DNA of 64,000 nt from Felis catus (taxonomy: Eukaryota), in contig NC_058368.1 in assembly GCF_018350175.1 (NCBI RefSeq), forward strand, positions 87,670,001 through 87,734,000, given 5' to 3'. Shown here in pieces: positions 10,358 to 60,641 of the stretch; positions within the stretch are counted from its first letter, which is position 1, and each line of letters begins with the position of its first letter. The notes beneath the pieces were generated by a model. It saw nothing but the letters and a program-made list of their open reading frames with translations. It did no database searches and was not told the origin of the DNA. The translations under genes were made by a program, and so were the position numbers.

Positions 10358-10814
10358 ATCACAGGCAGGATGGAAGTGGCTTCTGGTGGTGGTTCGAGTA
10401 TTACCTTGCCTCCATGTACATGCCTTGTTTGATTCCATGTCCACACTTGTGTCTAGGCTACTCTCTCTGCCCACATGCCCTGATTTGACTTTGACCAACC
10501 TTAGGGAGCCCTGGAATCTTTGGCTTCGCCTCAGTGTAGTTCTGTCTGCACCGACCTACCATGGGGTGGGAAGACAGAGGCATCCAGGGTAGACCAGATG
10601 ACTAGGACTTTGTGAGTGTTGGAGAGTGGAGGGGAAGGGGAAATGGGTAGGTAGGAGAGGGGGGGTGGACAGGAAGAAGGTGGGAGAGGAGGGAATGAGC
10701 AAGGCTAGTATTTACAGAGCAACTACTTCATGTCTGGCACTAGGCTCAACATTAAACATATGCCCCAAATTCATTTCAGAAAATCACCCCACAGTGTGTA
10801 ATGATATGGTGTAA

Positions 10815-11203
10815 CAGTCAGCTTGGTCTCTGTAACAAATACCACAGACTGGGAGGTTTAAACAACGCATTTATTTTTTTCCCAGTCCTGGGAACTGGAA
10901 GCATGAGATCCAGGTGTGGCAGGGCTGGTTCCTCCTGAGGCCTCTCTCCCCTGGCGTGCACATGCCATCTCCTCCCCATGTCCTTACACGGTTGTCCCCT
11001 GTGTGTGTCTATGCCCTGATCCCCTCTTCTATTAAGGACGCCAGTCACATGGGATCAGATGGGATCAGGGCCTACCCTAGTGACTTCCTTTTACCTGAAC
11101 CACCTCTGTAAAGACCCCATCTCCAAATATAGCCCCATTCTGAGGCCCTGGGGGTTGGAGCTTCAACATGTGAACTGGAGGGGACATGATTCAGCCCATA
11201 ATA
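10815..11203 (-). mobile_element. MaLR (MLT1-like) solo LTR in the 3' region of copy A
   Basis: Reverse complement of 59036-59425 with typical MLT1 motifs. Confidence 0.8.
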
Positions 11204-11340
11204 TTTTGTCAGTATTTTACAGGGAAGGAAAGTGGAGATAACACAGGATCATCCAGAAAGGTGCACCCTTGTATGTGATCTAGCTGGGACTTAGAATGGA
11301 TACATCTCCCCCAAATCGGTGACAGGCTGGAGCAGAGAGA

Positions 11341-11938
11341 TCATGGGTCTTGCTGGAGGAGGGTTCCCACCCTGTCCTGTCCCTCACCCTGAGGAGGCCC
11401 CAAGGCCTCTGGGGGCTGCCATTCTGAACAGATGGTTAGGAGGCTGGGGTCGTGTGTCCAGAGGCAGAAGAATGGCCTCAGGGGTGCCGAGAAGGACAGT
11501 CCAGAGAACGCGTAGACGAAGGATCCATTGCCCATGCTGTAGAAGGAGATTCTGCCTGCATCACAGTCCAGGAAAACGCCCACACGATGCAGGGGCTCCG
11601 AAGGGTGCAGGCGAACTCTTGGGAAGGCAAGTGCCCAGAACCTCTCCTTGTACAGATCCAGGGCCCAGAGTCCGTGCTGGGGGGCCTTGAGGATCCTTCC
11701 CGTCCAATCCAAGCTCTCCAGACACATGCCCAGGTTCCGGGTCTTCCTGTGCCCCACCTGGACCTCCCAGTAATACCCCCCAGCTGAGAACTGCTCCCGA
11801 CCCAGCACACAGGGGTCCCTGTTGAATCTGCTGGGTTGTCGGGCAGCTCTTGTTCAAAGAACAGCCGCCTCACAGTCTTCCTGTCCTCAGAGAGAGCGAG
11901 CTTGGGGCTTGCAGTGTCAGGGTCCAGGGATGGGCTCA
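11341..11938 (-). pseudogene. BTNL10: Copy A B30.2/PRYSPRY exon, frameshifted
   Basis: SLDPDTASPKL in one frame and YYWEVQV...HRVGVFLD...LRPFF in another; gacaacccagc vs aacgcccccagc in copy B. Confidence 0.88.
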
Positions 11939-12367
11939 CTGCGGGAAGAGGAGAGGATCGGCTTTAGGGGTTAGGGTCCCCACCTATGCTCTTGCATGGA
12001 GGTGGGACCATGCCTCCTTGGGAGTCCCTGTGTGTCCCCATTCTGTCCAGGACCCTGTGCACACAGGCCATCCCAGAGCAGTGGAAGTGGCTCCCTGTGT
12101 GTCACCATTCTCTGTCCAGGACCCTGTGCACACGCCCCACACTTCCCACTGAGACAGTGTCCTGGCTCTGCACTCTCTGTGTTAACAGTGTCCCCCACAG
12201 TGACTGTGCCTCAGAAGATCTGGCTCTCTTGCTGCCCAGGCTCTGCAGCCTGTCTGTCCCTCAGGTAGTAAACAGGAGCTAAGGTCCCTCAGGGCAGCTA
12301 AACTTGGTGTTTACAGCCATGGAACCAGCATTTAGCACAGCATTTCTGCACTCTGCAATAGAATGGA

Positions 12368-12715
12368 TCACACATGTGTGCACACACGTGCACATACACA
12401 TGAGTCCATGTGCATACACATGATGTATGTGCACACATACACACAAACACACACATGCACATAGATGTACAACATGCAAACACAGCACCCGTATGCACAT
12501 GCACATACACACAGAAACACGAGTGCATGTGCATACAAGGCACACATGAACACACATGCACAAATGCACATACTTGTACACACTGCATACACACATGAAA
12601 ACACATGCACATATGTGCATAACATGCACACACAGATGAGCACATAAATGTACAACATGCACACGTAACACCCACACATACATGCACTCACACATGCGCC
12701 CATAAACACACATGC
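12368..12715. repeat. Degenerate (CA/TG)n tract between the micro-exons of copy A
   Basis: cacacatgca-type alternating purine-pyrimidine repeats. Confidence 0.9.
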
Positions 12716-13518
12716 AGGGAGCAGGCCCTTCCAGCCCCCAGCATGGTCCTCACCATAGATGATGTCCTCTGGCCAGCCTGAAATGAAACAGAAAGATGTG
12801 AAACTGTAGGGTTTGCACTGACCAGATGGGGCGAAAGCTCATGTTCTGTGAAGCTAAGTCAAAACAGGATGTAATGAGCTCTCGCAGGGACCCTGTAAAG
12901 GAAGAGCAAATATCCCTTCTTCAGTGCCCAAAAAACAATCCAGGTCACTGTATTCCTAGGGAAAGGTTTTGTGGGGCGTAGCCTAATGGCCCAGCCTTCC
13001 CATGTCTGTCATAAAGACACATCTCTGACCTGTTCCCCAGATCGGGGCCTGACAGCTATGAGCAAGGACACAGGAGGCAGGGAGGAGAGCAGACAGGCGA
13101 GTGGAATGATCCATACTGATGATGATCCCCGCGCTCACAACAAGATCCTCTCAGGTGACAGGCTTGCTGCTGTATTTGTTGCTTGAGCATTTTCAGGATG
13201 TTGTCATCACCCTCGACTGATAGACTTTCCCAGGTTCAAGCTCACATCTGTCTCCACAGCAGAGACCCGCCAGTCTTCCCCAAGTCACCCAGTGAAGAGC
13301 AGCCAAGCACCTCTTAGTGATGGAGGATCTCACTGGGCATATGGTAGGTGGGCAGTCCCTGAGCTGGGGCCTGGGCAGGTCTCTCCCATTCCTCCTGGGC
13401 TTGAGGGTACACAAAGGAGGGACTTCATGCTGGGCTCTGCACGAGTGCCCTGGCTGGAAGGAGCACGTCTGTCCCACTGGGGCCTGCTTACCTTGGGACA
13501 GCTGTTCCTCTTCTCTGT

Positions 13519-13682
13519 TCAGTCTCTCTTCTTCCAGCTGCACCCTATTCCTGTTCCTCTGACGTTTCCAGAAAAGACAGGTGGCTCCTGCCACAAGACA
13601 GCTGCTGCAAGCCCCACCACAATGAGGATCACAGGCACCACTGCCCTCCATGCCATTGATGGGAAATTTTTGGGCACCTGGC
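13519..13682 (-). CDS. BTNL10: Copy A TM exon up to the premature stop (GQVPKNFPSMAWRAVVPVILIVVGLAAAVLWQEPPVFSGNVRGTGIGCSWKKRD*)
   Basis: Acceptor ctcttttag. Insertion gtcttgtggca relative to copy B shifts the frame; the original frame (ATCLFWKRQR...EEQLSQG) is still visible. Confidence 0.85.
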
Positions 13683-13849
13683 CTAAAAGAGAGTTTGGGG
13701 AGGCAAGAATACCAGGGTAAGAGAGCACCTGTGTTCTTAGGGCACACAAGCCACAGGGTTCATGGGTCAGGGGGCAGGTGCTTGTGAACTAACCTGACAT
13801 GACCTGAAAACATGTGTGTGCCTTTGTACAGACAGACATGGACACACAG

Positions 13850-14700
13850 GAGAGAGATGGTAGACAAATGGCAAAAGGTTACATACTGAGTGGGTCTGCA
13901 TTCTGTGTATCATTCCTGCAAATTTTCTGAAACTTGAGGTTGTTTAGAAGGAAAATTTTATACAGAGTGAAACTTGGAAGCCCCCAGGTGTCCTTCAGAA
14001 TGTGAATGCATAAACAGGCTGTGGTTCATCCAGACAAGGGAATACTGTTTACTGCCAATACGAAAGGAGCTATCCGTGCAGCCACTGTGGAGAAGATGAT
14101 GGACGTTCCCCCCCAAAATAAAAATAGAACTACCACATCAATCCACTCCTGGGTATTAATCCAAAGAAAATAAAAATATTAACTGAGAAAGATAATGCAC
14201 CCCTACATTTATTGCAGTGTTATTTACAATAGTCAAGATATGGAAACAGCCCAAGTGTCCACCAATGGATGAAAGGATAAAGAAAAAAATATGTATTTGT
14301 ACAACGGGATGCTATTCAGCTATAAACAAGAAGGAAATCCAGGCATTTTCTACAATATGGATGCACCTGAGGGCACTTTGCTAAGTGAAGTTAGACAGGG
14401 GAAAATGTATAGAGTCTCACAGATAAGTGAAATCTAAAATGAAACAAAACACCATCCAAACCTCCAGAAAACCAGAAAGCCTAGTTTATAGATGCAGAGA
14501 ACAGATTGGTGGTTTCCAGAGGTGAAAGATCGGGAAGCTAATGGGTGAAGAGGGTCAAAGGTGCAAACTTCCAGTTTAAAATAAGACCCAGGGAGGTGAC
14601 ATACAGCATGGAAACTATAGTTAACTACTGTGTTGTGTAGTTGGAAGCTGACAGAGACTAGATCTCACAAGGTCTCGTCACAAGGAACTATGCGGAGTAT
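13850..14700 (+). mobile_element. Old L1 3' fragments in the IgC-TM intron of copy A (mirrored at ~51700-52550)
   Basis: ttattgcagtgttatttacaatagtcaagatatggaaacagcccaagtgtcc and L1M-type 3' UTR sequence. Confidence 0.75.
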
Positions 14701-14768
14701 TGGATATTAACTACTGACTGTCTGGGGGTGCTCAGAGATCTTGAGGTCGAATGGAGCAGAACACTCAC

Positions 14769-15050
14769 CAGGTAGGTGGCTCTTGGTCTCCATCCTCTTC
14801 TGGAGGAGGGGGTTGGAGATAGAGCAAGAAAGATTCCCCACGTCCCTGTCCCAGACAATCACATTGGACACCACCGCAAAGAGGCCCGTTGTTGGCGACA
14901 CTGTGAGGTTGGTCGTGGAAGGTAGGGTCTGTCCCCTGAAGTCTCTCCACTCCACCTGGGGCTCTGGGTACCAGCCCTCCGAGGTGCACTCTGCCCTGAT
15001 ACCTTCATCCTGGCCAGCTCGCACTTGGATTCTGGGCTCAGAGCCCAGCC
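14769..15050 (-). CDS. BTNL10: Copy A IgC exon (282 nt)
   Basis: GLGSEPRIQV...AECTSEGWYPEPQVEW...LSCSISNPLL, the butyrophilin IgC signature. Confidence 0.93.
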
Positions 15051-15559
15051 CTGTGGGAAGAGACAGGCTTTGCAGCCTCTGCAACCATTACCATTTCTGA
15101 CAGAAAAGCACAGATCCTGAAAATTTCCAGCAGGTATCAGGGTTTTTCAGACTACTTGCTCTGTGTAATATTTATATGCCATATATGCTACCCTCTTCTG
15201 AGAAACCACAGAACAAAACAGAAAAGGCCCAGGAAGATCAAATACCTTTCCTGTATTGCAAAATCAGTGTCTTTTCCTCTCTGAATCTCTTTCTGCCTCT
15301 GTCCTCCCATCCCTACCTCTGCTACCCCTCTCTCTGGGACAGTGGGGGTAACTTTGAAAAGGAACTAGGTGTCCTGAATGTACCTGTCCTTGTGAAACGC
15401 ATTAGTGCATGCTGTGAGATGCACCCAGGCTGCCACAAACACGTTAGCGCCCGCTGTGGGAAGCGCCCAGGCCAGGGTCATAATGGGACGATCTGCAGCT
15501 GGGGGAAAAGGTCTCAGGCAGACCAGGAGAAGGTCAGGAGCCCCAGCAGCAACCCTCAC

Positions 15560-15913
15560 CTGCCACTCTCAGCCACAGGGTGGCCTCTGCAGACCCTGTG
15601 CTCTCTTTAAACTTGCAGTGGAAGGTCCCATTATCGAACACGGTGACGTTGCGTATGGTCAGCACAGCTTGGTCCTGGGCCAGGCCAGCCGTCCAGAAGG
15701 TCGTCCTGCCCTTATACTGCCACATCTGCTCTTCAGGCATGTCCCTGCCTTTCTTGCGCAGGTGCACGGCTGGGGACGGCTCCTTCCTGTACCACCTCAC
15801 CTCCATGTCCTCCGCACTGATATTGAGGGACAGATGGCATTGCAGCTTCACACTTTCCCCCACCATAGCCAGGACCGGTTGGCCGGGACCAGAGACAGAG
15901 AAATCGGCTTTCC
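15560..15913 (-). CDS. BTNL10: Copy A IgV exon (354 nt)
   Basis: GKADFSVSGP...VKLQCHL...MEVRWYR...YKGRTTF...DNGTFHC; canonical IgV Cys/Trp; AG and gtgagg boundaries. Confidence 0.93.
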
Positions 15914-16200
15914 CTTATGTGGTCATAGCAGAAAGCATGGGTTAGGACAGGTGAGAGGAAACCACGGGCCATCCACCCCACCAGGCACAAGGTCCCCCCC
16001 CCCAACCTGTGCCCAGTGTCTTCCCCTGCCCACGCCCAGGGGACACCCACCCACACCCAGGTTCCCCACCACCACCCCATGCTGGTGCCCAGGGTCCCTA
16101 GGGAAGGACTGCTTGGATCAAGTTCAGCCCTCTACTGTGTTCCTGTCCATGCATGGGGTTCCCTCCTAACATGGGGAAGGGACATGGGGAGCTCTCCTAC

Positions 16201-16294
16201 CCTTTGCAGAGAGGCTGTAGGACAGAAGCTTCAGAAGGAGGAAGATGATGGAGCAGCTGGGTGGAAAGATGTCTCGACCTTGTGTGTTTGCCAT
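16201..16294 (-). CDS. BTNL10: Copy A signal peptide exon (MANTQGRDIFPPSCSIIFLLLKLLSYSLSAK)
   Basis: Kozak cagccATGG, hydrophobic core, gtagga donor. Confidence 0.88.
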
Positions 16295-16356
16295 GGCTGC
16301 TGGAGACAGAGAGGCCTGAGCCCCAGACACTGGAGACAGGGCAGGACTGAGTTAAT

Positions 16357-16495
16357 TTCTGTCTCTCTTGGTTTCTGTCTCTGTCTCTCTCTATTTCTCT
16401 GTTTCTCTCTGTACCTGTCTCTGTCTCTGATTCTCTTTCTGTCTCTGTCTCTCTCGGTTTCTGTCTCTGTCTTTCTCCCTCTGTTTCTATCTTTG

Positions 16496-16526
<31 letters not shown>

Positions 16527-17083
16527 ATCCCTGTCTCTCTGTTTCTATCTCTCTCTGTCTCTGTCTCTATTTCTGTCTTTGTCTCTGTCTGTCTCTGTTT
16601 GTGTGTCTCTTTCTCTGTCCATCTCTGTCTTTCCCTGTCTCTGTCTCTGTCCCTCTGTTTCTGTGTCTGTCTCTCTCTGTATCTCAGCCTCTCTTGGTTT
16701 CTATGTCTCTCTCCAACTATGTTTGTCTCTCTCCTTTTTTTTCTGTCTCTGTCACTCTCTGTCTCTGTCTCCCTTTGTTTCTCTCTGTTTCTGTTTCTGT
16801 CTCTGTCTCTCTCTGTTCCTGTCTCTGTCTCTGTCTATCTCTGTCTGTCACCGTCTCTCTTGGTTTCTATCTCTGTCTCTCTCTGTTTCTGTTTCTGTCT
16901 CTGTCTCTGTTTCTGTCTCTGTCTCTCTCTGTTCCAGTCTGTTTGTCTGCTTCTGTTAGTCTCGGTTTCTATCTTTGTGTTTCCCGGCTTCTCTCCCTGT
17001 CTCTCCCTGTTTCTCTCTCTGTCCCTGTCTGTCTCTGTCTCTCTTTCCCTCTCCTACTCTATCTCTCTCTGTCTCTCTTTCTT

Positions 17084-17120
<37 letters not shown>
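16357..17120. repeat. (CT)n/(CTGT)n low-complexity tract upstream of the copy A signal exon
   Basis: Directly visible; mirrors the GA-rich tract at 48955-49950. Confidence 0.95.
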
Positions 17121-20100
17121 TGGTGGGGGATGAGTCAACACTGGGAGGCTAACGGAAGTGAAGGAAACATGGCTAGGGGAGAGAAAGGTCCCTTTTCACT
17201 ATCTTGGCCCCTCTTACTCCTGCACAAGTTGCTTACCCTAGAGACAGAGACACAACAGTGGCCACCTGATCTTGTGTCCACCTACTTGTGGATGACCTTT
17301 CTCTTGTGGTCATGTGTCTGCAAAACACCATGGACACATCCTCCTGTGAACGGGCTCTGTCTCCTCACCTGTTTGTGTAGGAGCCTTGCCCGACCTCTGG
17401 CTGTGCTCTGTCATGGAACATGAGCACGCTGGGAGAGAAAAACCACCCCCTAGTCAGGTGACTCCAAGGCCAGAAGTACCTCTGTCGACCCCCTTACAGC
17501 CCAAGAAAACTCGCAGTTGGAGGAGGGAGCACTCGAGCCAGAGGGCTCCTATACAGACATGGCCTGAGGCCAGCATGCTCCAAAGATTTATATTTATGAA
17601 CTCAGCTTTGAGAACAAGTGTTCTGAACCACATGTGCTGGTCTGGGCAATTCGGCCCAGCACCTCCTCATGCAGGACTGGCATGAGGAGGTATGTTGGCA
17701 CTTGCCCTCATTCTCTTTCGTGTTTTCCTTCCTTTGGTGAAAGCCTCTGGAGTCTCCCTGTCACTCAAGAATAGGGGAGGAGTGGAGAACACAGACATGT
17801 GGATGAGTACCCTTAAAATAGAAAGTACTCACCTTTCCAAGTAGTAGGGCTGTAGGGCTTCCCAGGGAGATTCTGTGGCTTTGAGGGGATCACTTGACTT
17901 CTCCACAAGTTCCAGGAAGGTGTAGAACAAGTCTTCCAGATGTGATAGGAGAGAGCAGCGGCTGAGCTCCCCAGCTTCTGTAGAATCCTAGGACTTTCTG
18001 GAAAAATGACCAACTGTGCCTTTCTGGAAGGTGCAATAGAAAAAATAAATAAACCAAGGGCTTCTTAAAGGGTGTGTTTGACAGAACTGAACACACTGAG
18101 TGTTGGGGAGCAAGGTCCTGGTAGCAGGAGATAAGGAGAGAGAGAAATACCCAGCAAGGAACCCCCGGGGTAGGGATGGCTGTCTGGGCTGGTGCCAGGA
18201 GCCCCTAGGTGGAGACCTGGCTCTTGAGTGCGAGGATCCAGGCCAAGGGCAGAGGCTGGGATACTCAGATAAAGTTTCTGCATTATCAAAACACCTCCAG
18301 TCCTGGACAGGCTGGGCCTGGTCCCTTTGGGAAAGTTTCTCATGTTCAGGTTGAAGTTGGTCAAATTCTAGCATTCACCCCCCACCCCAGACTCCTGTGC
18401 AGGAATTCAGGCCATCTCCTCCTCCATGTCTGGGGCCATGACAATCTTTCCTCACTGGGGACCTGACTTGGGCTGGGCTCAGAACACTCAGCCCCATTAT
18501 CTCTTGTGTGAGTAAGACACTGGCCTGAACCCTATCTGTTCTTCCCTCCTGTTGACCCAAAAGTCTGCACATTTTCTGGGAGAGTTTTGGAGGGAAAAAA
18601 ACAGTTAGGGAAAGTTTGCGTCCCTCCTGGAGATGGGATATTTGGTTGAATTCAGATTTTTATGGACTGAAGATTTGTGTCCCCTTCCCAAATCTGTGCT
18701 CACACAGGGACTGATGCTGCCAACCCACACCGTCCTCTGTGTTCCTATCAGGAGAGCGAACTATTTGGTAATCAAGCTGCTCCCCTGTTCTATATAAATA
18801 CGAAGAGTTATGCTGCCACTCATTTTCATCTCCCTGTGCATTGCTTTAAGCGGATAATGACATCATCTAAAACCCAGGTTGGGTATACTTCTGAGTCAGG
18901 ATGGAGGACTGGGGATGTGACATTAGAGGAAGCACCTAAGGGGTTTGGCAGCCGTGATGGAATGGATCCTGAAGGTGGGCGCACCTGGACAAGTGGTCCT
19001 TGGTGAGCATGCACATGGTCTGTAGCCTTTTACCTGAGTGGGAAGAGCTCCTGGAGATGGCACCAAGGCCCTCAGGGACAGTGATAAACCCCAGATGGGG
19101 ACGGGCTCCCTGAGTGCAGGTGGAAGGAAGGACACAGGGGGCCCCAGACTTCTACAGTCCCATTGCCATGGCATGTCCAGGACAGGTACATGCAGACAGA
19201 CAGAGAGCAGATTGATGGTTGTCAGGCAGTGGGGATGAGGGGGGAAATATAACCACAAAGCAGTTCGGGGGTTTGTTTTGGCACGAGACCCAGGTGGTGG
19301 CCGTACAAGCCTGTGTCAGTGTGCTGCATGTCACTGGATCGTTCACTTCAATGTGGTTGACTTTGTGTTATGGGAATGTCACCGCAACTGGAAAAAAAGA
19401 AAAAAACAAATGGAAAACACATAAGGTAGAAGGGAAATCTCCAAGTTGCAGGCTCCCGGGCGCCCTCTGCAGGGATGCGTGTGCAGTCCAGCACCCTGCT
19501 CCAGGGATGCACCAAGACCCAGTGAGCTTGCGTGGTCCACCCGCACCTGCACCTGCCTTGAGCCTGGCTCCCTGCAGGATCTGTCCTACAGAGGGCAGAG
19601 GCCCTAGGAGAGCTGAAGGGCCCCTCCCCGTCCCCCCCCCCACCCCGTGCCCACCTGCCCCTGCCACAAGCCAGCCTCTTGCTTCCTGCCCTGGGCTGTG
19701 TTCACAGAGTCTTTTTGGGTCCTCCCAGCATTTAAGCTAGTGTGTGCCCTCCCCCCACCCCATCACGGGTACTTGGCTCAGCTCTCCAAGTACACTGGGA
19801 CTTTATGGCTTGGCCGCAGGCACTGCCTGGGCCACCCCCTTGCAGGACCTACCCCCTCCTCTGGCTCCCTGGCCTCCAGTCCTACAATGGGAGGGTTCCT
19901 TCTGCACATTAGGTCCCTTGTCATGTGATCTCCGAGAGGTCCTTGCGTCTCCTGCACTGACCTCAGTGAACAAGAGGGCAGTGCCTCCACCAGGAAGATC
20001 CTCGGGGACTCCTCCAGGGAAAGAAGCAGTGGGGGGGGGGAGGGGTGGCGTCCCTTAGGCGGACGGTGCAGGTGCCATGTGGTTGGGGCGGGGAGGAAAG

Positions 20101-20139
20101 GTGAGATGTCCTCAGAGAAATACCGCGGTGTCAATGCAA

Positions 20140-20460
20140 TGAAGCGCTTGGGTCATCCAGTTCCTGGTGGTAGTTCTTATCAACATACCTCTGCATGGGG
20201 CCTTTGTGTCCCCGGGAAGGCAAGTGCTTGGGTCATGCAGTGCCCGGTCGTAGTTCTTTCCCACAACCCTCAGCCTGGGGCCTTTGTGGTTCTGGGTAGG
20301 CAAGGGCTTGGGTCATCCAGTGCCTGGTGGTTGTCCTTACCCACACACCTCTGTGTGGGGTCTTTGTGGCCTTGGGAAGGCAAGGACTTGGGTCATCCAG
20401 TGCCTGGTGGTGGTTCTTACCCACAACCCTCTGTGTGGGCCTTTGTGGTCCTGGGAAGGC
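20140..20460. repeat. ~80-bp minisatellite, ~4 units
   Basis: cttgggtcatccagtgcctggtgg... recurs at ~20147, 20228, 20308 and 20387. Confidence 0.85.
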
Positions 20461-20549
20461 TCTCATGAGTATAGGGAGGAAACTCTCCCTTACTTCCTAT
20501 GGAGCCAGGGTGGGGTGGGGGGGTGGAGTGGAGAGGGGCAGTTAATGTC

Positions 20550-20932
20550 TGGCTTCCCTCCCCTTCCCTCGCCCTCCTCCTCCTCCTGGTGCTCACCTCT
20601 CCAACCTCCCCTCCCCCTCCTCCTCTTCATTTCCCAATCCTCCTCTCCTTACTCCTCCACCTCCCCACCCCTACTCCCCTCCCTGTCCTCCTCCCTCATT
20701 CTCTGCCCTCCCCTCCTCCTCCTCTTCTCCCCTCCCTCATGTCTCCTCCCCTCTCATTCCTCCCCTCCCCTCCTACTCTCCATACTCCTTCTCCTCCCTT
20801 CCCTTCCTCCACCTCTTCATTCTACTCCCCCTCTTTCTCCCTATTCTCCCCTCCCCCTCTTCCCTCACTTCCCCCTCCTACCTTCCCTGTCCTCATCTGC
20901 TTCTCTCTCCTCCCTTCACCTCCTCTCTTTCC
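20550..20932. repeat. Polypyrimidine (CCT/CT) tract at the inner edge of the left arm
   Basis: Homologous to the purine tract at 44860-45240. Confidence 0.9.
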
Positions 20933-23390: not shown

Positions 23391-23399
23391 CAAAGGAAT

Positions 23400-49950: not shown

Positions 49951-50010
49951 TAACTCAGTCCTGCCCTGTCTCCAATATCTGGGGCTCAGGCCTCTCTGTC
50001 TCCAGCAGCC

Positions 50011-50104: not shown

Positions 50105-53100
50105 GTAGGAGAACTCTCCCCGCCCTCCCATGAGCCATGTTAGGAGGGAGCCTGTGCATGGACAGGAACACAGTAGGGGGCTAAACTTGATCCAAGCAGT
50201 CCTTCCCTGGGGACCCTGGACAAGGGCATGGGGTGTTGTTGAAGAACCTGCGTGTGGGTGGGTGTCCCCTGGGCGTGGGCAGGGGAAGACACTGGGCACA
50301 GGCTGGGGGGGGGCGGGGCGGGGACCCTGTGCCCAGTGGGGGGGGGGGGATGGCCCATGGTCTCCTCTCACCTGGCCTAACCCATGCTTTCTGCTATGAC
50401 CTCATAAGGGAAAGCCGATTTCTCTGTCTCTGGTCCTGGCCAACGGGTCCTGGCTATGGTGGGGGAAAGTGTGAAGCTGCGATGCCATCTGTCCCTCAAT
50501 ATCAGTGTGAAGGACATGGAGGTGAGGTGGTACAGGGAGGAGCTGTCCCCAGCTGTGCACCTGCGCAAGAAAGGCAAAGATGTGCCAGAAGAGCAGATGT
50601 GGCAGTACGAGGGCAGGACGACCTTCCTGATGTCCGGGCTGGCCCAAGACCAAGCTGTTCTGACCATACACAATGTCACGGTGTTCGATAACGGGACCTT
50701 CCACTGCAAGTTCAAAGATGGCATGGCGTCTGCGGAGACCACCCTGTGGCTAAGGGTGGCAGGTAAGGGTCGCCACTAGGACCTCTGGTCTCCCCTAGCA
50801 CTTATCGTCCAGCTGCAGATCGTCTGATCATGGCCCAAGCCTGAACGCATCCCACGGCATGCACTAACACATATGCAGTGGCCTGGGCCTGTCCCACAGC
50901 TTGCGCTAACATGTTTGGGCCTGGCCTGAGTGCGTCCCACAGCGTGCTCTAATGTGTTTGTGTCGGTCTACACGTGTCCCACAAAATGCGATAATGCACT
51001 AGAACAAGCAGGTTCTGGGCGCCTGGCTCATTTTCTAAGTCGGCTTCTGTTACCCACACTGACCCCAGAAAGAAAGGAAAGGAGGTATGGAGAGAAGGAA
51101 AGAGGCAGAAAGAGATACAGAGAGAAACAGGAAAAGACACCAATTTTGCAATACAGGAAAGGTATTTGATCTTCCTGGGCCTTTTCTGTTTTGTTCTGTG
51201 GTTTCTCAGAAGAGGGTAGCATATATGGCATATAAATATTACACAGAGCAAGTAGTCTGAAAAACCCTGATACCTGCTGGAAATTTTCAGGATCTGTGCT
51301 TTTCTGTCAGAAATGGTAATGGTTGCAGAGGCTGCAAAGCCTGTCTCTTCCCACAGGGCTGGGCTCTGAGCCCAGAATCCAAGTGCGAGCTGGCCAGGAT
51401 GAAGGTATCAGGGCAGAGTGCACCTCGGAGGGCTGGTACCCAGAGCCCCAGGTGGAGTGGAGAGACTTCAGGGGACAGACCCTACCTTCCACGACCAACC
51501 TCACAGTGTCGCCAACAACGGGCCTCTTTGCGGTGGTGTCCAATGTGACTGTCTGGGACAGGGACGTGGGGAACCTCTCTTGCTCTCTCTCCAACCCCCT
51601 CCTCCAGGAGAGGATGGAGGCCAAGATCTGCCTACCTGGTGAGTGTTCTGCTCCATCCAGGCCTCAAGAGCTCTGAGCACCCCAGACAGTCAGTAGTTAA
51701 TATCCAATACTCCGCATAGTTCCTTGTGACGAGACCTTGTGAGATCTAGTCTCTGTCAGCTTCCAACTATACAACACAGTAGTTAACTATAGTTTCCATG
51801 CTGTATGTCACCTCCCTGGGTCTTATTTTAAACTGGAAGTTTGCACCTTTGACCCTCTTCACCCATTAGCTTCCCGATCTTTCACCTCTGGAAACCACCA
51901 ATCTGTTCTCTGCATCTATAAACTAGGCTTTCTGGTTTTCTGGAGGTTTGGATGGTGTTTTGTTTCATTTTAGATTTCACTTATCTGTGAGACTCTATAC
52001 ATTTTCCCCTGTCTAACTTCACTTAGCAAAGTGCCCTCAGGTGCATCCATATTGTAGAAAATGCCTGGATTTCCTTCTTGTTTATAGCTGAATAGCATCC
52101 CGTTGTACAAATACATATTTTTTTCTTTATCCTTTCATCCATTGGTGGACACTTGGGCTGTTTCCATATCTTGACTATTGTAAATAACACTGCAATAAAT
52201 GTAGGGGTGCATTATCTTTCTCAGTTAATATTTTTATTTTCTTTGGATTAATACCCAGGAGTGGATTGATGTGGTAGTTCTATTTTTATTTTGGGGGGGA
52301 ACGTCCATCATCTTCTCCACAGTGGCTGCACGGATAGCTCCTTTCGTATTGGCAGTAAACAGTATTCCCTTGTCTGGATGAACCACAGCCTGTTTATGCA
52401 TTCACATTCTGAAGGACACCTGGGGGCTTCCAAGTTTCACTCTGTATAAAATTTTCCTTCTAAACAACCTCAAGTTTCAGAAAATTTGCAGGAATGATAC
52501 ACAGAATGCAGACCCACTCAGTATGTAACCTTTTGCCATTTGTCTACCATCTCTCTCCTGTGTGTCCATGTCTGTCTGTACAAAGGCACACACATGTTTT
52601 CAGGTCATGTCAGGTTAGTTCACAAGCACCTGCCCCCTGACCCATGAACCCTGTGGCTTGTGTGCCCTAAGAACACAGGCGCTCTCTTACCTTGGCTTTC
52701 TCGCCTCCCCAGACCCTCTTTTAGCTCAGTTGTCCAGAAGTTTCCCATCAATGGCGTGGAGGACAGTGCTGCCTGTGATCCTCATTGTAGTGGGACTTGT
52801 AGCAACTGGAGCCACCTGTCTTTTCTGGAAACGTCAGAGGGACAGGGATAGGGTACAGCTGGAAGAAGAGAAACTGTACAGAGAAGAGGAGCAGCTGTCC
52901 CAAGGTAAGCAGGCCCCAGTGGGACAGACGTGCTCCTTCCAGCCAGGGCACTCGTGCAGAGCCCAGCATGAAGTCCCTCCTTTGTGTACCCTCAAGCACA
53001 GGAGGAATGGGAGAGACCTGCCCAGGCCCCAGCTCAGGGACTGCCCACCTACCATATGCCCAGTGAGATCCTCCATCACTAAGAGGTGCTTGGCTGCTCT

Positions 53101-56100
53101 TCACTGGGTGACTTGGGGAAGACTGGCGGGTCTCTGCTGTGGAGACAGATGTGAGCTTGAACCTGGGAAAGTCTATCAGTCGAGGGCGATGACAACATCC
53201 TGAAAATGCTCAAGCAACAAATACAGCAGCAAGCCTGTCACCTGAGAGGATCTTGTTGTGAGCGCGGGGATCATCATCAGTATGGATCATTCCACTCGCC
53301 TGTCTGCTCTCCTCCCTGCCTCCTGTGTCCTTGCTCATAGCTGTCAGGCCCCGATCTGGGGAACAGGTCAGAGATGTGTCTTTATGACAGACATGGGAAG
53401 GCTGGGCCATCAGGCTACGCCCCACAAAACCTTTCCCTAGGAATACAGTGACCTGGATTGTTTTTTGGGCACTGAAGAAGGGATATTTGCTCTTCCTTTA
53501 CAGGGTCCCTGCGAGAGCTCATTACATCCTGTTTTGACTTAGCTTCACAGAACATGAGCTTTCGCCCCATCTGGTCAGTGCAACCCTACAGTTTCACATC
53601 TTTCTGTTTCATTTCAGGCTGGCCAGAAGACGTCATCTATGGTGAGGACTATGTAAGGGCTGGAAGCGTCTGCTCCCTGAATGTTTGTTTATGTGTGCAC
53701 ACGTGTGTGTGCAGTGTGCATGTATGTGTGTATGTGTGAGTGCTGTGTGTGCATGGTATACATTTATGTGTTCACCTGTGTGCCATATGCACATTTGTTA
53801 GTGTGTGCACATGCACATGTGTGGTGCTTTGTGCACATAAGTACACATGTGTTCTCGTGTGTGCAGTGTGTGCATGTGTATTTATGTGTGCATGTGTATG
53901 CACATGCACTTGTGTCTGTGCATATATGTGCATGTGTGTGCACGCATGTGTTTGTATGTGCACGTGCACTTGTGGACACGTATTGCACACATGTGTGCAC
54001 ATGTACTTGTGTGTGTATGCATTGCACACATGTACTTGTGTGTGTGCCCACGTGCACATGTGTATTTGTGTGTGCACATGTACTCATGTGTGTGTGTATG
54101 CATGTGCATGTATGTGTGTGTTCTCCTTTCTATTCCAGGGTGCAGAAATGCTGTGCTAAATGCTGGTTCTATGGCTGTAAACACCAAGTTTTGCTGCCCT
54201 GAGAGACCTTAGCTCCTGTTTACTGCCTGAGGGACAGACAGGCTGCAGAGCGCGGGCAGCGAGAGAGCTAGCTCTTCCAAGGAACAGCCACTGTGGGGGA
54301 CACTGTTAGCACAGAGAGTGCAGAGCCAGTGCCTTTCTGCCCCAGGGCACCATATAGGTGGGAAGCATGGGGGGAGAGTCTGGCTGTGGAGAGGGACCCC
54401 CAAGGACAGGAGGGGCAGTACTGCGAGCCACGAGCTGGGCAGATGAAAGCAGGAAGGGGATCTGGGAACACCTGTCCCACCACAGCCACATGGTGAGGGC
54501 CCAGGAAGAGACAGACAGAAGCCAGTCTCCATTCATTCATGCAGTTACAACCATGACCAGATATCTTCTGTGCAAGCAACTGGCCTCCATTAGTTAATGT
54601 ACAGCTTCCTCCTGTCCTCATGGAGCATAGAGTCTATATGGGGATGTGAGCCACAAGTCAGCATTTGTTTTTTTAATTATTAAATCTGGAATAACTGTGA
54701 TAGGAAAGAGCCAGAATACTAGGAGGATGGCCAGGAGCATGTTCAAGTGGGATGTCCAGACCCCTGGGAATGGTGGGGTGATGGGGTGGGTGATGGCAAG
54801 ACCACAGCTATACGAGGAGGGGAGAACTCGCCCCTGTGGCAGGGAGAGTGGGGTCTGTGATGTGTGACAGCTTGGCATGTGGAAGAGGTACCAACAGGGC
54901 AGGAAGGCTTGTGTGTGTCCCTGCAGAGCCTGGGAGGCTGAGGTAGAGGCCTGGACTTTACATGAAGCACCGTGCAATGTGAGTGAGAACCTGTAAGCAG
55001 GGGAGCAGCACTGATGGAGGAGAGGATACAGCCCCGAGATGGGTCCTGGGGCCACAAGTAGCACAGTCCAGAAGGGGCAAGGCAGAGGGAGCAGCCCAAG
55101 GTGACCCCCAGCTGCATAAGTCTCTGGCCCTTCGGGCTCCATCTAACAGAAGGTTTGGGGCAGATTTGGGCCAAATAAGTGAAAATCACCATGGACCTCC
55201 TAAGACTGAGCTGTTCTCACACATCCTGCTAAGGACGTCAGATGAATCATTGGATATGCGAGTCTGGAACTCTCAGGAGAAATCGGGACTAGAGACAGGA
55301 ATTGGGGTCCATGGCAAATATCTGGTATAACTGAACGCGTGAGTGCTACATTTTTTGCTACACCTAAAATTATTCTTTAAAAATTTCTCTTTGGAAAAGA
55401 ATTAAGATTTTTTAAAAAGGGAAGATACAGGGAAACAAGAAAGATCCAAGATCTAGCGTTGGAGAACCCTGGTATTTGAAGGTTAGAGCAGTGGTTGTGG
55501 GAGGGCCAAGGGAGACTTCACCATGGAAATGTGCAGGTGCAGTGTGTTGAAGGAGCATCAACTTTCGTGCACCTGAGAAGTAGAGTCAGGTCAACCCGGG
55601 AAAATGGCCCAGAAAAACTGGCAAGCATGGTACAAAGAGAGGCGTCTCCTGTGGAGAGAACTGGGAGGGAGGTCTCAAATTTATTGCCTGTGTAGTTGAG
55701 CTAAGACTTGGTGAGTGGGGAATGGGAAGGTTCTGTTTGTGTTTGCTGTGGTTTTACTTTGAGGTCCGTGGCAGGAGAGCATGCCTGTTGCCTAAAAGGA
55801 ACCATGTGGTGTGAAGATGCCTGAAGCCTGAAGGGAGGAAGAAAACCAGTAAGAGAATGATGATGCAGAGAAGATAGTCAGCAGCTGTGGATGGGATGGA
55901 CCACAGGTCTACACTGTGGCCAGGTGGGGGGTGGTGTGCAAGGGTCCAGCACATACGTGATGGACAGCACAGGAGAAGATTCACAGCCAGGTGTGGGTGG
56001 TGTGCAAGAGGAATCAGTGTACACAGGACACAGACTGAGATCCAGGGACAGGTGTGGGTGGTGTTCAAGAGAAGCCAGTGTACCAGGACACAGGATGAGC

Positions 56101-58957
56101 TCCAGGGACAGGTGTCAGTGTGTGCAAGAGGAGTCAGTGCACAAGGACACAGGATGAGCCCCAGGGACAGGTGCGGGTGGTGTGCAAGAGGAGTCAGCGC
56201 AGAAGGACACAGGATGAGCCCCAGATACAGGTATGGGTGGTGTGCAAGAGGAATCAGTGGACAAGGACACAGGATGAGCTCTAGGGACAGGTATGGGTGT
56301 GTACAAGAGGAGTTAGCACACAAGGACACAGGCAGTGCTCCAGGGACAGGTGTGGGTGGTGTACAAGAGGAATCAGTGGACAAGGACACAGGGTGAGCTC
56401 CAGGGACAGGTGTGAGTGTGTACAAGAGGAGTTAACACACAAGGACACAGGCAGTGCTCCAGGGACAGGTGTGGGTGGTGTGCAAGAGGAGTCAGCACAC
56501 AGAACACAGGATGAGTTCCAGGGACAGGTGTGGGTGGTGTGCCAAAGGAATCAGTTCAGAAGGACACAGGATGAGCCCCAGGGACAGGTGTGGGTGGTGT
56601 ACAAGAGGAGTCAGCACACAAGGACACAGGATGAGCTCCAGGGACAGGTGTGGGTGTGTACAAGAGGAGTCAGCACACAAGGACACAGGATGAGCTCCAG
56701 TGACAGGTGTGGGTGACAGGTGTGCAAGAGGAATCAGTGCCCAAGGGCACAGGTGGTTCTCCACAGTCAGGTGTGCTGTGGTGTGCAAGAAGTCACTATA
56801 GAATATTTTTGTATCAATGTCAATTGTATGGTTTTGATCCTATTACTGTGGGTTATATGAGATGCTATCATGGGCATATTGTGTATGGTATTTTGCAACC
56901 TCTTTGTAAGTCTCAAACTGTTTTTTGACATGAATATTTTTTAATTATGAGGGAATTTGGAATAGAAGGAGCCGGGCCCATTGTTCAGCTAGTGAGTCCA
57001 TGTTTGGCCATCATAGATATGAACATGGGTGGGCTCAATCTGCATGGCCCAGACTCTACAGGGAAAGGGTTTGCATGGAGCAGAGGGAGAAGACTTCAGG
57101 AAGCAGCAATGAGAAATCGGGGAGAACATTTAGTCTTTGCTGGAAAGTGAAAGGGAGCAGGGTTCCTTCCAGAAGGAAGTAGAGACCGGGGAGAAAGTTG
57201 TGGTTCTGTTAGGAGGAGAGCGTGTGTGCTGTCCAGCTGACAGGGATGGATGGTCAGGAAACATGAGTGTCTGCGGCATCGTATGCAGACCCCAGCAACC
57301 AGCAGCATGCCTACTGAATGGGCAAGGGTGGACACCAGCCAGGAGGTTTCTGTTGTCGTGAAGGTGCCTGCACAGGCAGCTGGGGCTCCCAGCTGATCCC
57401 CACCTTCCCTGCCTCTCAGGTGTAGACAGACCCTCCCCCAGGTGACATGATGAGGGCCTGAGGGCTCTGAGAAGGATGGTGGGACAGGAGAGAAGGGATC
57501 TGTTTTGGAAGGTGTTCATCTCAGTTTGTGAGGCTGCTAAGGTGTCTCTCAGGGTTTTCCAGATGGGATCTTCCCTTCAGTGGTTGACCCCAGAGCTGTC
57601 CAATGGCATCAATGCACCTGTGACCTCATCTCATGTCACCCTGTCTCTTCACGTGTCCTCCTATGTCTTTCTCTCTATCTCTGTCTCCCTGTGTCTTTCT
57701 CTGTGTCTCTCTTCCTCTGTCTCTGTCTGTGTCCATACCTTTCTCAATCTCCCTCTATCTCTCTTCCTGTGTCTCCCTATGTGTATCTCTCCTTGTTCTC
57801 CTTGTCTCTCTGTCTCTGTCTCTCTCTTTCCTTGCCTCTCTCTGTCTCTGTCTCTCTATCTCTCTCTCTATGTCTACCTGTGTCTGTCTGTCCCTGTCTC
57901 TGTCTCTCACGTGCACGCCCACATAGCCCCCCCACACACAAGTGCATATGCACACACACATGCACATCCACATCCATCCTGACACACGGGGCCCTGGGAG
58001 CAATGCCTATCTCACAGTGTGCCCCCCTGTCCCCTCATAGGAATCCCCCCTGGCTCTCCCTGGCTCCCCCTGGAGCCGCCTCTGCTGCCTTGGGATGGCC
58101 TGTTTGCACAGGATCCTGGACAGAGAAAGGGACTCACAGGGAGCCGCCTCCGCTGCTCTGGGATGGCCTGTGTGCACAGGGTCCTGGACAGAGAACGGGG
58201 ACGCACAGGGATTCCCAGGGAGACATGGTTCCACCTCCATTCAGGAGCACAGGTTGGGGACCCCAACCCCTAAACCTGATCCTCTCCTCTTCCCGCAGTG
58301 AGCCCATCCCTGGACCCTGACACTGCAAGCCCCAAGCTCGCTCTCTCTGAGGACAGGAAGACTGTGAGGCGGCTGTTCTTTGAACAAGAGCTGCCCAACG
58401 CCCCCAGCAGATTCGACCGGGACCCCTGTGTGCTGGGCCTGGAGCAGTTCTCAGCTGGGAGGTATTACTGGGAGGTCCAGGTGGGGCACAGGAAGGCCTG
58501 GAACCTGGGCGTGTGTCTGGAGAGCTTGGATCGGAAGGGAAGGATCCCCAAGTCCCCTCAGCACGGACTCTGGGCCCTGGAGCTGTACAAGGAGGGGTTC
58601 TGGGCACTTGCCTTCCCAAGAGTTCGCCTGCACCTTTCGGAGCCCCTGCATCGTGTGGGCGTTTTCCTGGACTGTGATGCAGGCAGAATCTCCTTCTACA
58701 GCGTGAGCAATGGATCCCTCATCTACGCGTTCTCTGGACTGTCCTTCTCGGCACCCCTGAGGCCATTCTTCTGCCTCTGGACACATGACCCCAGCCCCCT
58801 GACCATCTGCTCAGAACGGCAGCCCCCAGAGGCCTTGGGGCCTCCTCAGGGTGAGGGACAGGACAGGTGGGAACCCTCCTCCAGCAAGACCCATGATCTC
58901 TCTGCTCCAGCCTGTCACCAATTTGGGGGAGATGTATCCATTCTAAGTCCCAGCTAG
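50011..58957 (+). CDS. BTNL10: Butyrophilin-like protein copy B (BTNL10-like), intact; 7 coding exons, 1620 nt, 539 aa: signal-IgV-IgC-TM-juxtamembrane-B30.2
   Basis: join(50011-50104,50409-50762,51357-51638,52725-52904,53618-53641,54139-54165,58299-58957). All introns GT-AG and phase 1; frame open. Motifs KADF, WQY.GRTTF, EPRIQV, DFRGQ and FWKRQR match human BTNL10 as I recall it. Confidence 0.9.
50409..50762 (+). CDS. BTNL10: Copy B IgV exon
   Basis: GKADFSVSGPGQRVLAMVGESVKLRCHL...DNGTFHCKF...LWLRVA; donor gtaagg. Confidence 0.94.
51357..51638 (+). CDS. BTNL10: Copy B IgC exon
   Basis: GLGSEPRIQV...CTSEGWYPEPQVEW...LSCSLSNPLL; acceptor cccacag, donor gtgagt. Confidence 0.94.
52725..52904 (+). 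CDS. BTNL10: Copy B transmembrane exon
   Basis: AWRTVLPVILIVVGLVATGATCLFWKRQRDRDRVQLEEEKLYREEEQLSQ; donor gtaagc. Confidence 0.92.
53618..53641 (+). CDS. BTNL10: Copy B 24-nt micro-exon (GWPEDVIY)
   Basis: tttctgtttcatttcag acceptor, gtgagg donor, phase 1-1; present in copy A at 12754-12777. Confidence 0.65.
53680..54120. repeat. Degenerate (TG/CA)n tract between the micro-exons of copy B
   Basis: Directly visible. Confidence 0.9.
54139..54165 (+). CDS. BTNL10: Copy B 27-nt pre-B30.2 micro-exon (GCRNAVLNA)
   Basis: Acceptor tattccag, weak gttcta donor; a 27-nt phase 1-1 exon is typical of BTN genes; present in copy A at 12326-12352. Confidence 0.7.
55985..56790. repeat. ~60-bp minisatellite, ~13 units, in the last intron of copy B
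   Basis: Unit caggtgtgggtggtgtgcaagaggagtcagcacacaaggacacaggatgagctccaggga. Confidence 0.93.
57640..57910. repeat. CT-rich low-complexity tract
   Basis: Directly visible. Confidence 0.85.
58299..58957 (+). CDS. BTNL10: Copy B B30.2/PRYSPRY exon plus C-terminal tail
   Basis: LDPDTA, RFDRDPCVLG, GRYYWEV, WNLGVC, RVGVFLD, ISFY and LRPFF motifs; acceptor tcccgcag; TAG at 58955-58957. Confidence 0.95.
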
Positions 58958-59035
58958 ATCACATACAAGGGTGCACCTTTCTGGATGATCCTGTGTTATC
59001 TCCACTTTCCTTCCCTGTAAAATACTGACAAAATA

Positions 59036-59425
59036 TTATGGGCTGAATCATGTCCCCTCCAGTTCACATGTTGAAGCTCCAACCCCCAGGGCCTCAGAAT
59101 GGGGCTATATTTGGAGATGGGGTCTTTACAGAGGTGGTTCAGGTAAAAGGAAGTCACTAGGGTAGGCCCTGATCCCATCTGATCCCATGTGACTGGGGTC
59201 CTTAATAGAAGAGGGGATCAGGGCATAGACACACACAGGGGACAACCGTGTAAGGACATGGGGAGGAGATGGCATGTGCATGCCAGGGAGAGAGGCCTCA
59301 GGAGGAACCAGCCCTGCCACACCTGGATCTCATGCTTCCAGTTCCCAGGACTGGGAAAAAATAAATGTGTTGTTTAAACCTCTCAGTCTGTGGTATTTGT
59401 TACAGAGACCAAGCTGACTGTTACA
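59036..59425 (+). mobile_element. MaLR (MLT1-like) solo LTR just 3' of the copy B stop; contains AATAAA at 59360-59365
   Basis: tatgggctgaatcatgtccc...tatttggagatggggtcttta...ataaatgtgttgtttaaacc...tctgtggtatttgttacag. Confidence 0.82.
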
Positions 59426-60641
59426 CCATATCATTACATGCTGTGGGGTGATCTTCTGAAATGAATTTGGGGCATATGTTTAATGTTGAGCCTAGTGCCA
59501 GACATGATGTAGTTGCTCCGTAAATGCAACTACTGGTCTACCTTGGATACCTCTGTCTTCCCACCTCACCATGGCAGGTCGGTGCAGACAGAGCTACATT
59601 GAGGCCAAGCCAAAGATTCCAGGGCTCCCTGAGGTTGGTCAGGGTTGAATCAGGGCATGTGGGCAGAGAGAGTAGCCTAGACACAAGTGTGGATGTAGAA
59701 TCAAACAAGGCATGAGCATGGAGGGAAGATGAGACTCAAACCACTGCCAGAAGCTGCTTCCACCCTACTTACGGGTATGATGATCGAGGGAAGCTGGAAG
59801 GAGCCCGGGAGCTCCTGGAGAGAGCGCTCAGGCCTCCCCAGTGAGGCTGGTCCCCTGAGTGCTAGGAGAGGCCAATGGGGGCATGAGCAGGATTGGGATG
59901 GTCCATCATGTGCCTCCCCTGGCTGCAGCTGCCAGATCTGATGTAGAGTGAAGGCTTGCCCCCCAGACATGGAAGGGGTCTTTCTCCCAAGGAGGGTCCC
60001 TGGGCTGTGACCCCATGTGACCTTGAGGGTAACTCAACACTCACTCTGTGCACATTCTGTTGGTTAGTGTGTGTGCTCACACCCAGACATGAAAGAGAGA
60101 TTCTACCTTAAGCAAGTTGTGTGCATTTGCACATAACATGGGAATGTCTCATTTCATCCCAATGCCCCCCACCCCAGAGGGCTGTGTTGCTGCTCCCTAG
60201 AGATGGGGGCCCAGGATGTGCACAGTAAGGGCCCCATGGTGGCCATGATGCACCTGCATCCACTGCTGTACTGGGAATGCCCTCCAATTTCTCCCAAGCC
60301 TACCCGTGGTCCCATGATGCCCTTCTGCCATGGGGCACAGGCCTCCCAGTGCCCACCTACAGGGCTCATGGGGGCAGAAGGGTGCCCTACAGAGGGGTCA
60401 CAAAGTGGAGAGGCAGCTGTGGGGGTCCACGTGGGCCTCCAGCTCCTCCTGGGTTCAAAGGGCATCAGGCAGTCACAGGTCAACATCATAATGTAGGGAC
60501 AACATGGGTCATGGTGAAGGATGCACTTGTGTTGGAAAAGAAGAAGGAAGGAAGAAAACTTGGGGAAACTTGGAGCAGATGTCTGCAGAGCAGATGTCCA
60601 GGCAAACACTTGCAGCTCCTGAGAAACTGCAGTGAGTTCAG

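What the first reader, a model, noticed from the sequence alone, without database searches (positions are those of the whole stretch)
10358..59770. Head-to-head BTNL10-like gene pair in a ~49-kb palindrome: one full-length, one B30.2-less
Seen: two inverted arms each carry the same exon set. Copy B encodes 539 aa with B30.2; copy A encodes a 297-aa IgV-IgC-TM product. Established: butyrophilins often act as heteromers (BTNL3/BTNL8, Btnl1/Btnl6, BTN2A1/BTN3A), BTN3A2 is a B30.2-less partner of BTN3A1, and these complexes engage gamma-delta TCRs. As I recall, human BTNL10 is single-copy, truncated after the TM and treated as a pseudogene. Inference: this may be a lineage-specific paired BTNL10 system, with near-identical upstream regions that would favour co-expression.
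Basis: partly seen in the sequence, partly recalled or inferred. Interest (0 to 1): 0.85.

Follow-up and report, generated by a model that had tools for sequence, protein, structure and literature searches.

The report
Co-expressed full and tailless cat BTNL10
Cats carry two inverted copies of the immune surface-protein gene BTNL10, both spliced into mRNA at similar levels in the same samples; one is complete, while the other is cut short by an old frameshift yet keeps a conserved outer domain, and it likely acts as a non-signalling partner that would regulate the complete one.

Summary
The pair is real, but the description needs correcting. Two inverted BTNL10 copies lie about 24 kb apart, with patchy 76-100% identity: an old duplicate under gene conversion, not a 49-kb palindrome. 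Copy B is intact (530-534 aa, not 539). Copy A keeps every exon, B30.2 included. An 11-nt insertion in its TM exon ends the protein at 297 aa in ...WKKRD, removing the juxtamembrane coiled coil and B30.2.

Cat RNA contigs (3 of 4 runs laid) show A spliced at 1.2-1.6 times B's depth; its stop lies 51-54 nt before the last junction, so NMD escape is predicted. Database models carry the insertion in 6 of 6 named felid species whose A model reaches that exon. A's IgV changes as fast as untranslated sequence, yet 0 of 21 changes hit mammal-conserved sites. Long-plus-short BTNL10 pairs also appear in wolf, bear and horse records, so the arrangement is not felid-specific.

Best reading (0.4): a maintained non-signalling partner that likely holds B back in the ER. 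Rivals: decaying duplicate (0.3) or BTN3A2-like surface subunit (0.2). Binding and trafficking are untested.

The parts
10367..20932 (-). Arm A of the inverted duplication, L1 fragments on both sides
44855..59766 (+). Arm B of the inverted duplication
17833..19500 (-). Copy A upstream region and upstream exon (donor after 17833; 5' end not mapped), 97-100% identical to B 46580-48251
   Evidence: loose ends join this exon to the signal-peptide exon and, in 2 of 3 positive runs, directly to IgV
16201..16294 (-). Copy A signal-peptide coding exon (ATG at 16294)
15560..15913 (-). Copy A IgV exon; 10.5% nucleotide divergence from B, dN/dS 0.29
14769..15050 (-). Copy A IgC exon, homogenised with B by gene conversion
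13492..13682 (-). Copy A TM/juxtamembrane exon (191 nt) with an 11-nt insertion; shifted frame ends ...WKKRD, TGA at 13521-13519
   Evidence: spliced form fits contig lengths
12754..12777 (-). Copy A 24-nt penultimate exon, behind the stop
11341..11938 (-). Copy A B30.2 (PRY-SPRY) exon, untranslated, with a 1-nt deletion near 11835
50011..50104 (+). Copy B signal-peptide exon
50409..50762 (+). Copy B IgV exon
51357..51638 (+). Copy B IgC exon
52713..52904 (+). Copy B TM/juxtamembrane exon (acceptors 52713 or 52725)
53618..53641 (+). Copy B 24-nt exon
58299..58957 (+). Copy B B30.2 exon, intact
54340..58100 (+). Last-intron sequence present in B, absent from A (approximate ends; holds a minisatellite)
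20933..44854 (.). Spacer, L1- and SINE-rich
34982..45134 (.). One arm of a second, 10.1-kb, 99.4-99.5% identical inverted repeat; the other arm lies 5.2-15.4 kb left of the window, so the pair brackets a 40-kb block holding copy A

Best explanation
Cat BTNL10 is a duplicated pair in which copy B encodes a complete butyrophilin and copy A is a spliced, equally abundant mRNA for a 297-aa protein lacking the coiled coil and B30.2, which likely serves as a non-signalling partner that would pair with B through their near-identical IgC domains and hold it back in the ER.

Shown: the gene structures; the frameshift; splicing and co-expression; the insertion in all felid A models that reach the TM exon; IgC homogenised between copies while IgV stays copy-specific; A's IgV core spared from change.

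Inferred: NMD escape (stop 51-54 nt before the last junction); translation; membrane anchoring by a shortened 17-18-residue helix; COPI retrieval through the terminal KKRD; IgC-IgC contact with B; the effect on B's surface level. Gene conversion between the arms keeps promoter and IgC matched, which would keep the two chains co-expressed and compatible.
For:: in 3 of 4 runs laid (three studies), A-specific contigs join upstream exon, signal exon, IgV, IgC and TM exon. IgV depth A:B is 137.4:86.2, 71.2:60.4 and 39.8:32.5, with introns at 0-16; the loose-end lengths 235 and 123 match those predicted for TM exon with insertion > 24-nt exon > last exon; four other splice routes do not give 235; the inserted residues, with a frame-corrected or shifted-frame model, appear in fishing cat, Geoffroy's cat, lion, jaguar, clouded leopard and an unnamed record in the tiger cluster. 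The A-specific EEERLN, whose codons give the stop in cat, is in 8 of 8 such records, against EEEKLY in 9 of 9 B records; 0 of 21 IgV changes among 7 felid A proteins fall on 38 of 115 sites conserved in 16 other mammals (33% expected, P=2e-4; P=0.016 calibrated on A's untranslated B30.2, 6 of 26; Fisher 0.026). A-B IgV dN/dS 0.29. IgC groups by lineage (0-6 differences of 93-94 within species), IgV by copy (14-17 of 84). KKxx definition: PMC3521961 (abstract and passages).
Against: Overall, A's IgV changes as fast as its untranslated B30.2 exon (13 of 84 vs 26 of 180, P=0.86) and about four times faster than B's IgV (3 of 84, P=0.02). Promoter conversion alone explains expression. The control exon also shows a mild deficit at conserved sites (P=0.05-0.13), and it too is a divergence island beside homogenised flanks (28 of 601 vs 3 of 465), so the TM island (20 of 192 vs 11 of 1774) does not by itself prove selection on A. 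The jaguar A model skips the signal exon and first third of IgV, which may mean a lesion there. 'LOW QUALITY' models can hide frameshifts. The shifted frame is lysine-rich: 1 of 18 stop-accessible positions gives KKxx or KxKxx, a modest chance level. KKRD is read from cat DNA only, and the short forms in wolf, bear and horse do not end in KKxx. Whether an acidic last residue weakens retrieval was not found in the passages read. One raw-read run had no reads on the stretch (about 2% of it read).
Confidence: 0.4

Rival explanations
1. Birth-and-death leftover: A is a once-functional duplicate that lost its tail before the felid radiation. It stays expressed because conversion copies B's promoter and its stop escapes NMD; any protein is ER-retained and idle, with at most weak selection against misfolding.
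For: IgV rate equals the untranslated exon's rate. Extra lesions in A's B30.2: cat and Geoffroy's cat share one, the tiger-cluster model skips part of it. Possible ectodomain lesion in jaguar. Different truncations in wolf, bear and horse copies. Human BTNL10 is listed as a pseudogene (PMC11969061, passages).
Against: 0 of 21 changes at conserved IgV sites. No stop in 7 complete A IgV models, though only about 1 was expected. The frameshift is unrepaired in every A model that reaches it, although conversion has overwritten A's B30.2 in fishing cat (4 of 182 differences).
Confidence: 0.3
2. BTN3A2-like surface subunit: A heterodimerises with B, the dimer masks the KKRD signal, and A supplies a distinct IgV for a gamma-delta TCR while B supplies B30.2.
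For: Co-expression near 1:1. Seven of 18 cat A-B IgV differences (positions 75, 77, 135-138, 142) fall in the loops that align to BTNL3's TCR-contact motifs NQFHA and DEEAT and the FG loop (PMC6868513 passages; mapped through BTN2A1, post hoc, not tested statistically). BTN3A1 itself is ER-retained until partnered (PMC10665462).
Against: A lacks the juxtamembrane coiled coil that governs BTN3A pairing. A's IgV surface is less conserved than B's, the opposite of what a germline TCR-contact subunit would show. No TCR link for BTNL10 appeared in the listings.
Confidence: 0.2
3. A works alone as a fast-evolving B7-like ligand or pathogen decoy, independent of B.
For: Core conserved while variable sites change at or above the neutral rate; short copies recur in other mammals.
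Against: Terminal KKxx and a short TM argue against free surface display (inference); no codon test for positive selection was possible.
Confidence: 0.08
4. Assembly or haplotype artefact.
For: Identical tracts of up to 909 nt between arms; a 99.5%-identical 10-kb repeat nearby.
Against: 10% exon divergence, both versions in three independent RNA data sets, both annotated in five felid species.
Confidence: 0.02

Closest known systems
Mammalian BTNL10 (mouse Btnl10; human BTNL10, listed as pseudogene)
   Same: B is NCBI's cat 'butyrophilin-like protein 10' (P0002, IgV 100%). Best non-felid hits are mostly named BTNL10 (58-74% in IgV). RING, histone H2A and two TRIM-type genes lie to the right, the RNF187-histone-TRIM17/11 neighbourhood recalled for human BTNL10.
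   Different: Two genes. A is truncated by a TM-exon frameshift. NCBI's cat A model (P0059, 457 aa) bypasses the stop with a junction the RNA contig length does not support.
Human BTN3A1/BTN3A2 pair
   Same: Paralogues with near-identical ectodomains, one with and one without B30.2, co-expressed; partner controls trafficking (PMC11969061, PMC10665462, passages).
   Different: BTN3A2 keeps the juxtamembrane coiled coil and has an IgV identical to BTN3A1's (PMC6868513, passage). A has lost the coil, ends in KKxx, and has a diverged IgV with a homogenised IgC.
BTNL3/BTNL8 and Btnl1/Btnl6 heteromers
   Same: Neighbouring paralogues; A-B differences partly sit on the CFG face that binds TCR in BTNL3.
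   Different: Human BTNL3 and BTNL8 are both long chains (466 and 500 residues in entry 22kk, matching B up to its B30.2). No binding or TCR evidence here.
Long and short BTNL10 gene models in wolf, black bear and horse
   Same: A long form with B30.2 beside a 275-302-aa form with intact IgV-IgC on the same contig.
   Different: Different lesions (no TM exon in the wolf model; juxtamembrane frameshift in bear; stop just after TM in horse), no KKxx, and near-identical IgV in wolf and bear. Judged from protein records only.

Membership tests
Butyrophilin family (copy B) | Signal-IgV-IgC-TM-juxtamembrane-B30.2 architecture | tested here: met
   Pfam V-set, C2-set_3, PRY, SPRY; best PDB matches BTN2A1 and BTN3A
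BTNL10 orthologue | Closest relatives are BTNL10 proteins | tested here: met
   other cat butyrophilin IgVs are at most 46% identical. Human BTNL10 itself was not returned, and no tree with all human paralogues was built.
BTNL10 orthologue | Synteny with RNF187, histone genes, TRIM17/TRIM11 | tested here: met
   Searches show RING, H2A and two TRIM-type ORFs 19-100 kb beyond B; the gene names and the human order are recalled
BTN3A2-like heteromer partner (copy A) | Lacks B30.2 with intact ectodomain | tested here: met
BTN3A2-like heteromer partner (copy A) | Co-expressed with the full-length paralogue | tested here: met
   same samples; cell type and tissue unknown
BTN3A2-like heteromer partner (copy A) | Keeps the juxtamembrane coiled coil that drives pairing | tested here: not met
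   frameshift replaces it; requirement from PMC10665462
BTN3A2-like heteromer partner (copy A) | Physical heteromer at the surface engaging a gamma-delta TCR | not testable with these tools
   needs co-IP, surface staining and TCR reporter assays
KKxx ER-retrieved type I membrane protein (copy A) | Lysines at -4 and -3 of a cytosolic C-terminus | tested here: met
   ...WKKRD-stop; definition PMC3521961
KKxx ER-retrieved type I membrane protein (copy A) | Actual ER/Golgi residence, COPI dependence | not testable with these tools
   motif only
Transcribed unprocessed pseudogene (copy A) | Disabling lesion relative to the parent gene | tested here: met
   two frameshifts
Transcribed unprocessed pseudogene (copy A) | Neutral evolution of the remaining ORF | tested here: inconclusive
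   overall rate neutral-like but conserved sites spared; protein-level only
Large genomic palindrome | Near-identical arms with a short spacer | tested here: not met
   arms 76-100%, unequal, 24-kb spacer

The most novel reading that the evidence does not exclude
BTNL10, dismissed as a pseudogene in humans, works in cats, and convergently in canids, bears and horses, as a two-chain system: a full-length B30.2 chain plus a tailless paralogue. In felids the tailless chain gained an NMD-proof stop that creates a KKxx signal, making it an ER gate or obligate assembly partner that sets which IgV face reaches the surface for gamma-delta T cells.
Probability: 0.2. Interest if true: 0.8.

Novelty: new variant of a known kind. 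Interest (0 to 1): 0.5.

Why it matters
Butyrophilin heteromers are the main known ligands of gamma-delta TCRs, and BTNL10 is the family's orphan. A conserved, co-expressed long and short pair gives a directly testable handle on its function and suggests that short BTNL10 forms, the human one included, may be more than decay. Both cat genes are in databases, but the A model there looks wrong. No paper on a BTNL10 duplication in felids or carnivores appeared in the listings (open-access library only; subscription papers and supplements not seen). If A is only a decaying duplicate, the locus is still a clear case of conversion keeping a broken paralogue expressed.

Tried and rejected
Complex prediction of B(32-310) with A, single sequences: no answer (score 0.04, mark 0.34), used neither for nor against binding. 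A search with A's C-terminal 53 residues found only the cat record and a partial clouded-leopard match, 2 of 4 candidates, so KKRD could not be confirmed outside cat; DNA of other felids was not available. Raw-read run X24 gave 0 reads. Spacer ORFs at 34849-35172 and 41163-41734 and the ORF at 60137-60496 had no Pfam match. Reading the TM-exon divergence island as proof of selection was rejected because the untranslated B30.2 exon behaves alike. Dating the duplication to the felid stem from the IgV tree was downgraded: conversion resets such dates and other carnivores have pairs. A paper on KKxx strength recalled by id was not held. Earlier-findings look-ups returned nothing. Two rows (lemur, manatee) were dropped from the tree because the domain pattern did not match; fishing cat was left out of the B30.2 control because its A exon is converted.

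Full report
Identity. The window lies on a 239-Mb contig. The IgV exon at 50411-50761 is 100% identical to NCBI's cat butyrophilin-like protein 10 (P0002). The genome holds two such exons; the other 19 of 21 hits are at most 46% identical. A RING gene, histone H2A and two TRIM-type genes lie to the right of copy B, the neighbourhood I recall for human BTNL10.

Structure. Self-comparison gives two inverted arms, 10367-20932 and 44855-59766, around a 24-kb L1-rich spacer. Identity per window runs from 76 to 100%, with identical tracts up to 909 nt, and B has about 3.6 kb of extra intron. This is an old duplicate under patchy gene conversion, not a palindrome in the strict sense. B has six coding exons and gives 530 or 534 aa with V-set, C2, PRY and SPRY domains. 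A has the same exons. An 11-nt insertion in the TM exon shifts the frame after an 17-18-residue hydrophobic stretch and ends the protein at 297 aa with ...WKKRD. B read in the same shifted frame has no stop at that place, so the stop is an A-specific change. A's B30.2 exon is present, untranslated, and has a second 1-nt deletion.

Expression. One search listed 24 runs; four were laid on A's signal-IgV-IgC region. Three contig sets from three studies show exon depth far above intron depth and canonical joints, so they are RNA although listed as a guess. A and B separate as equal-length IgV contigs with depths 137.4:86.2, 71.2:60.4 and 39.8:32.5. The tool warns that contig depth is a poor expression measure; I use it only as a within-run ratio. 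A-type contigs run from IgC into A's TM exon. Their loose ends of 235 nt (two runs) and 123 nt (one run) equal the lengths predicted from shared 31-mers for the route TM exon with insertion, 24-nt exon, last exon; four other routes do not give 235. The stop is then 54 nt (first base) or 51 nt (last base) before the final junction, at the edge of the 50-55-nt rule for NMD escape (PMC1854916, abstract in listing). The fourth run, raw reads of unknown tissue with about 2% read, had none. Tissue is unknown.

Other felids (protein records only). Both copies are annotated in cat, fishing cat, tiger, clouded leopard and jaguar; A also in Geoffroy's cat, Canada lynx and lion. Every A model that reaches the TM exon carries the inserted residues and is frame-corrected, shifted or truncated: 6 of 6 named species plus an unnamed record in the tiger cluster. 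The Canada lynx, NCBI tiger and P0003 models avoid the exon. The lesion therefore predates the Pantherinae-Felinae split (roughly 11-15 Ma, recalled). The B30.2 deletion is shared by cat and Geoffroy's cat only; fishing cat's A exon has been overwritten from B. IgC groups by lineage and IgV by copy.

Selection on A, both ways. Between cat A and B, IgV dN/dS is 0.29 (18 synonymous, 19 non-synonymous), which includes time before the lesion. Among crown felids A's IgV changes as fast as its untranslated B30.2 (13 of 84 vs 26 of 180) and faster than B's IgV (3 of 84). Yet 0 of 21 changes in seven A proteins hit the 38 of 115 sites conserved in 16 non-felid orthologues, where a codon-based null expects 33% (P=2e-4). 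The untranslated control has 6 of 26 at such sites; calibrating on it gives P=0.016. So the fold looks maintained while the surface drifts or is driven. Caveats: frame-corrected models can hide lesions, the jaguar model skips the signal exon, and no DNA-level test across species was possible.

Beyond felids. Wolf, black bear and horse each have long and short BTNL10 records on one contig that differ in sequence, so they look like separate genes. Lesions differ and none of these short forms ends in KKxx. This removes 'lineage-specific' and fits either repeated decay of duplicates or repeated use of a tailless chain. Copies with broken ectodomains would be missing from protein databases, which biases the pattern.

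Orientation. The jaguar A model begins in sequence that in cat lies 3' of B (60203-60493), implying tandem order there. In cat a 10.1-kb, 99.4-99.5% inverted repeat brackets a 40-kb block holding A; flipping it would make the genes tandem. Head-to-head order is therefore unlikely to be essential, and the two 5' ends are about 30 kb apart, so there is no shared bidirectional promoter.

Mechanism. BTN3A pairing is governed by juxtamembrane coiled coils (PMC10665462, abstract and passages), and BTN3A2 lacks B30.2 but helps BTN3A1 reach the surface (PMC11969061, passages). A fails the coiled-coil criterion and gains a terminal KKxx, the COPI retrieval pattern (PMC3521961, abstract and passages). 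IgC domains form the V-shaped BTN3A dimer, and IgC is the domain kept alike in A and B. I therefore favour a non-signalling partner that limits B's ER exit (0.4), over decay (0.3), a surface TCR-binding subunit (0.2) or a stand-alone ligand (0.08). Seven of 18 IgV differences sit in loops matching BTNL3's TCR-contact motifs (PMC6868513, passages), which keeps the surface rival alive. All protein-level steps are inference.

Novelty and score. The genes are annotated; no paper on the pair appeared in the listings, of which I read passages only in PMC11969061 and PMC6017450. It is a new variant of the known long-plus-short butyrophilin theme.

Noticed in passing
window 34982-45134 and G000:C1 about 87,654,650-87,664,780: 10.1-kb inverted segmental duplication at 99.4-99.5% identity bracketing a 40-kb block with copy A: a candidate recurrent inversion, or an assembly duplication.
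   Followed up: partly
window 58866-58957 (+): Cat B reads 21 residues further than several relatives because of a 1-nt deletion near its C-terminus (...WEPSSS... vs ...VGTLLQQDP). Both endings occur in A or B of different felids, a sign of conversion.
   Followed up: partly
window 15913-17833 (-): An isoform joins the upstream exon directly to IgV, skipping the signal-peptide exon, in 2 of 3 positive runs; copy not assignable.
   Followed up: no
G000:C14:29744-230199: Four butyrophilin-type IgV exons in tandem near the start of another contig (38-39% to BTNL10 IgV): a further cat butyrophilin expansion.
   Followed up: no
G000:C1:85.8-86.3 Mb and 89.15 Mb: Four more butyrophilin-type IgV exons on the same contig, one with a TGA.
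   Followed up: no
P0121 (red fox), P0055, window ~11835: The short red fox BTNL10 model goes out of frame at about the same B30.2 position as cat and Geoffroy's cat copy A: a hot spot or a shared old lesion.
   Followed up: no
   Followed up: no
window 1-2550, 20930-23390, 23960-28930; flank about 47-48.4 kb left of the window: Young L1 copies at 87-93% identity in both orientations; a 1.4-kb L1 3' end in the left flank is 99.4% identical to window 1161-2547.
   Followed up: no
window 55900-56800, 61600-62550: Minisatellite-like tandem arrays, the first inside B's last intron.
   Followed up: no
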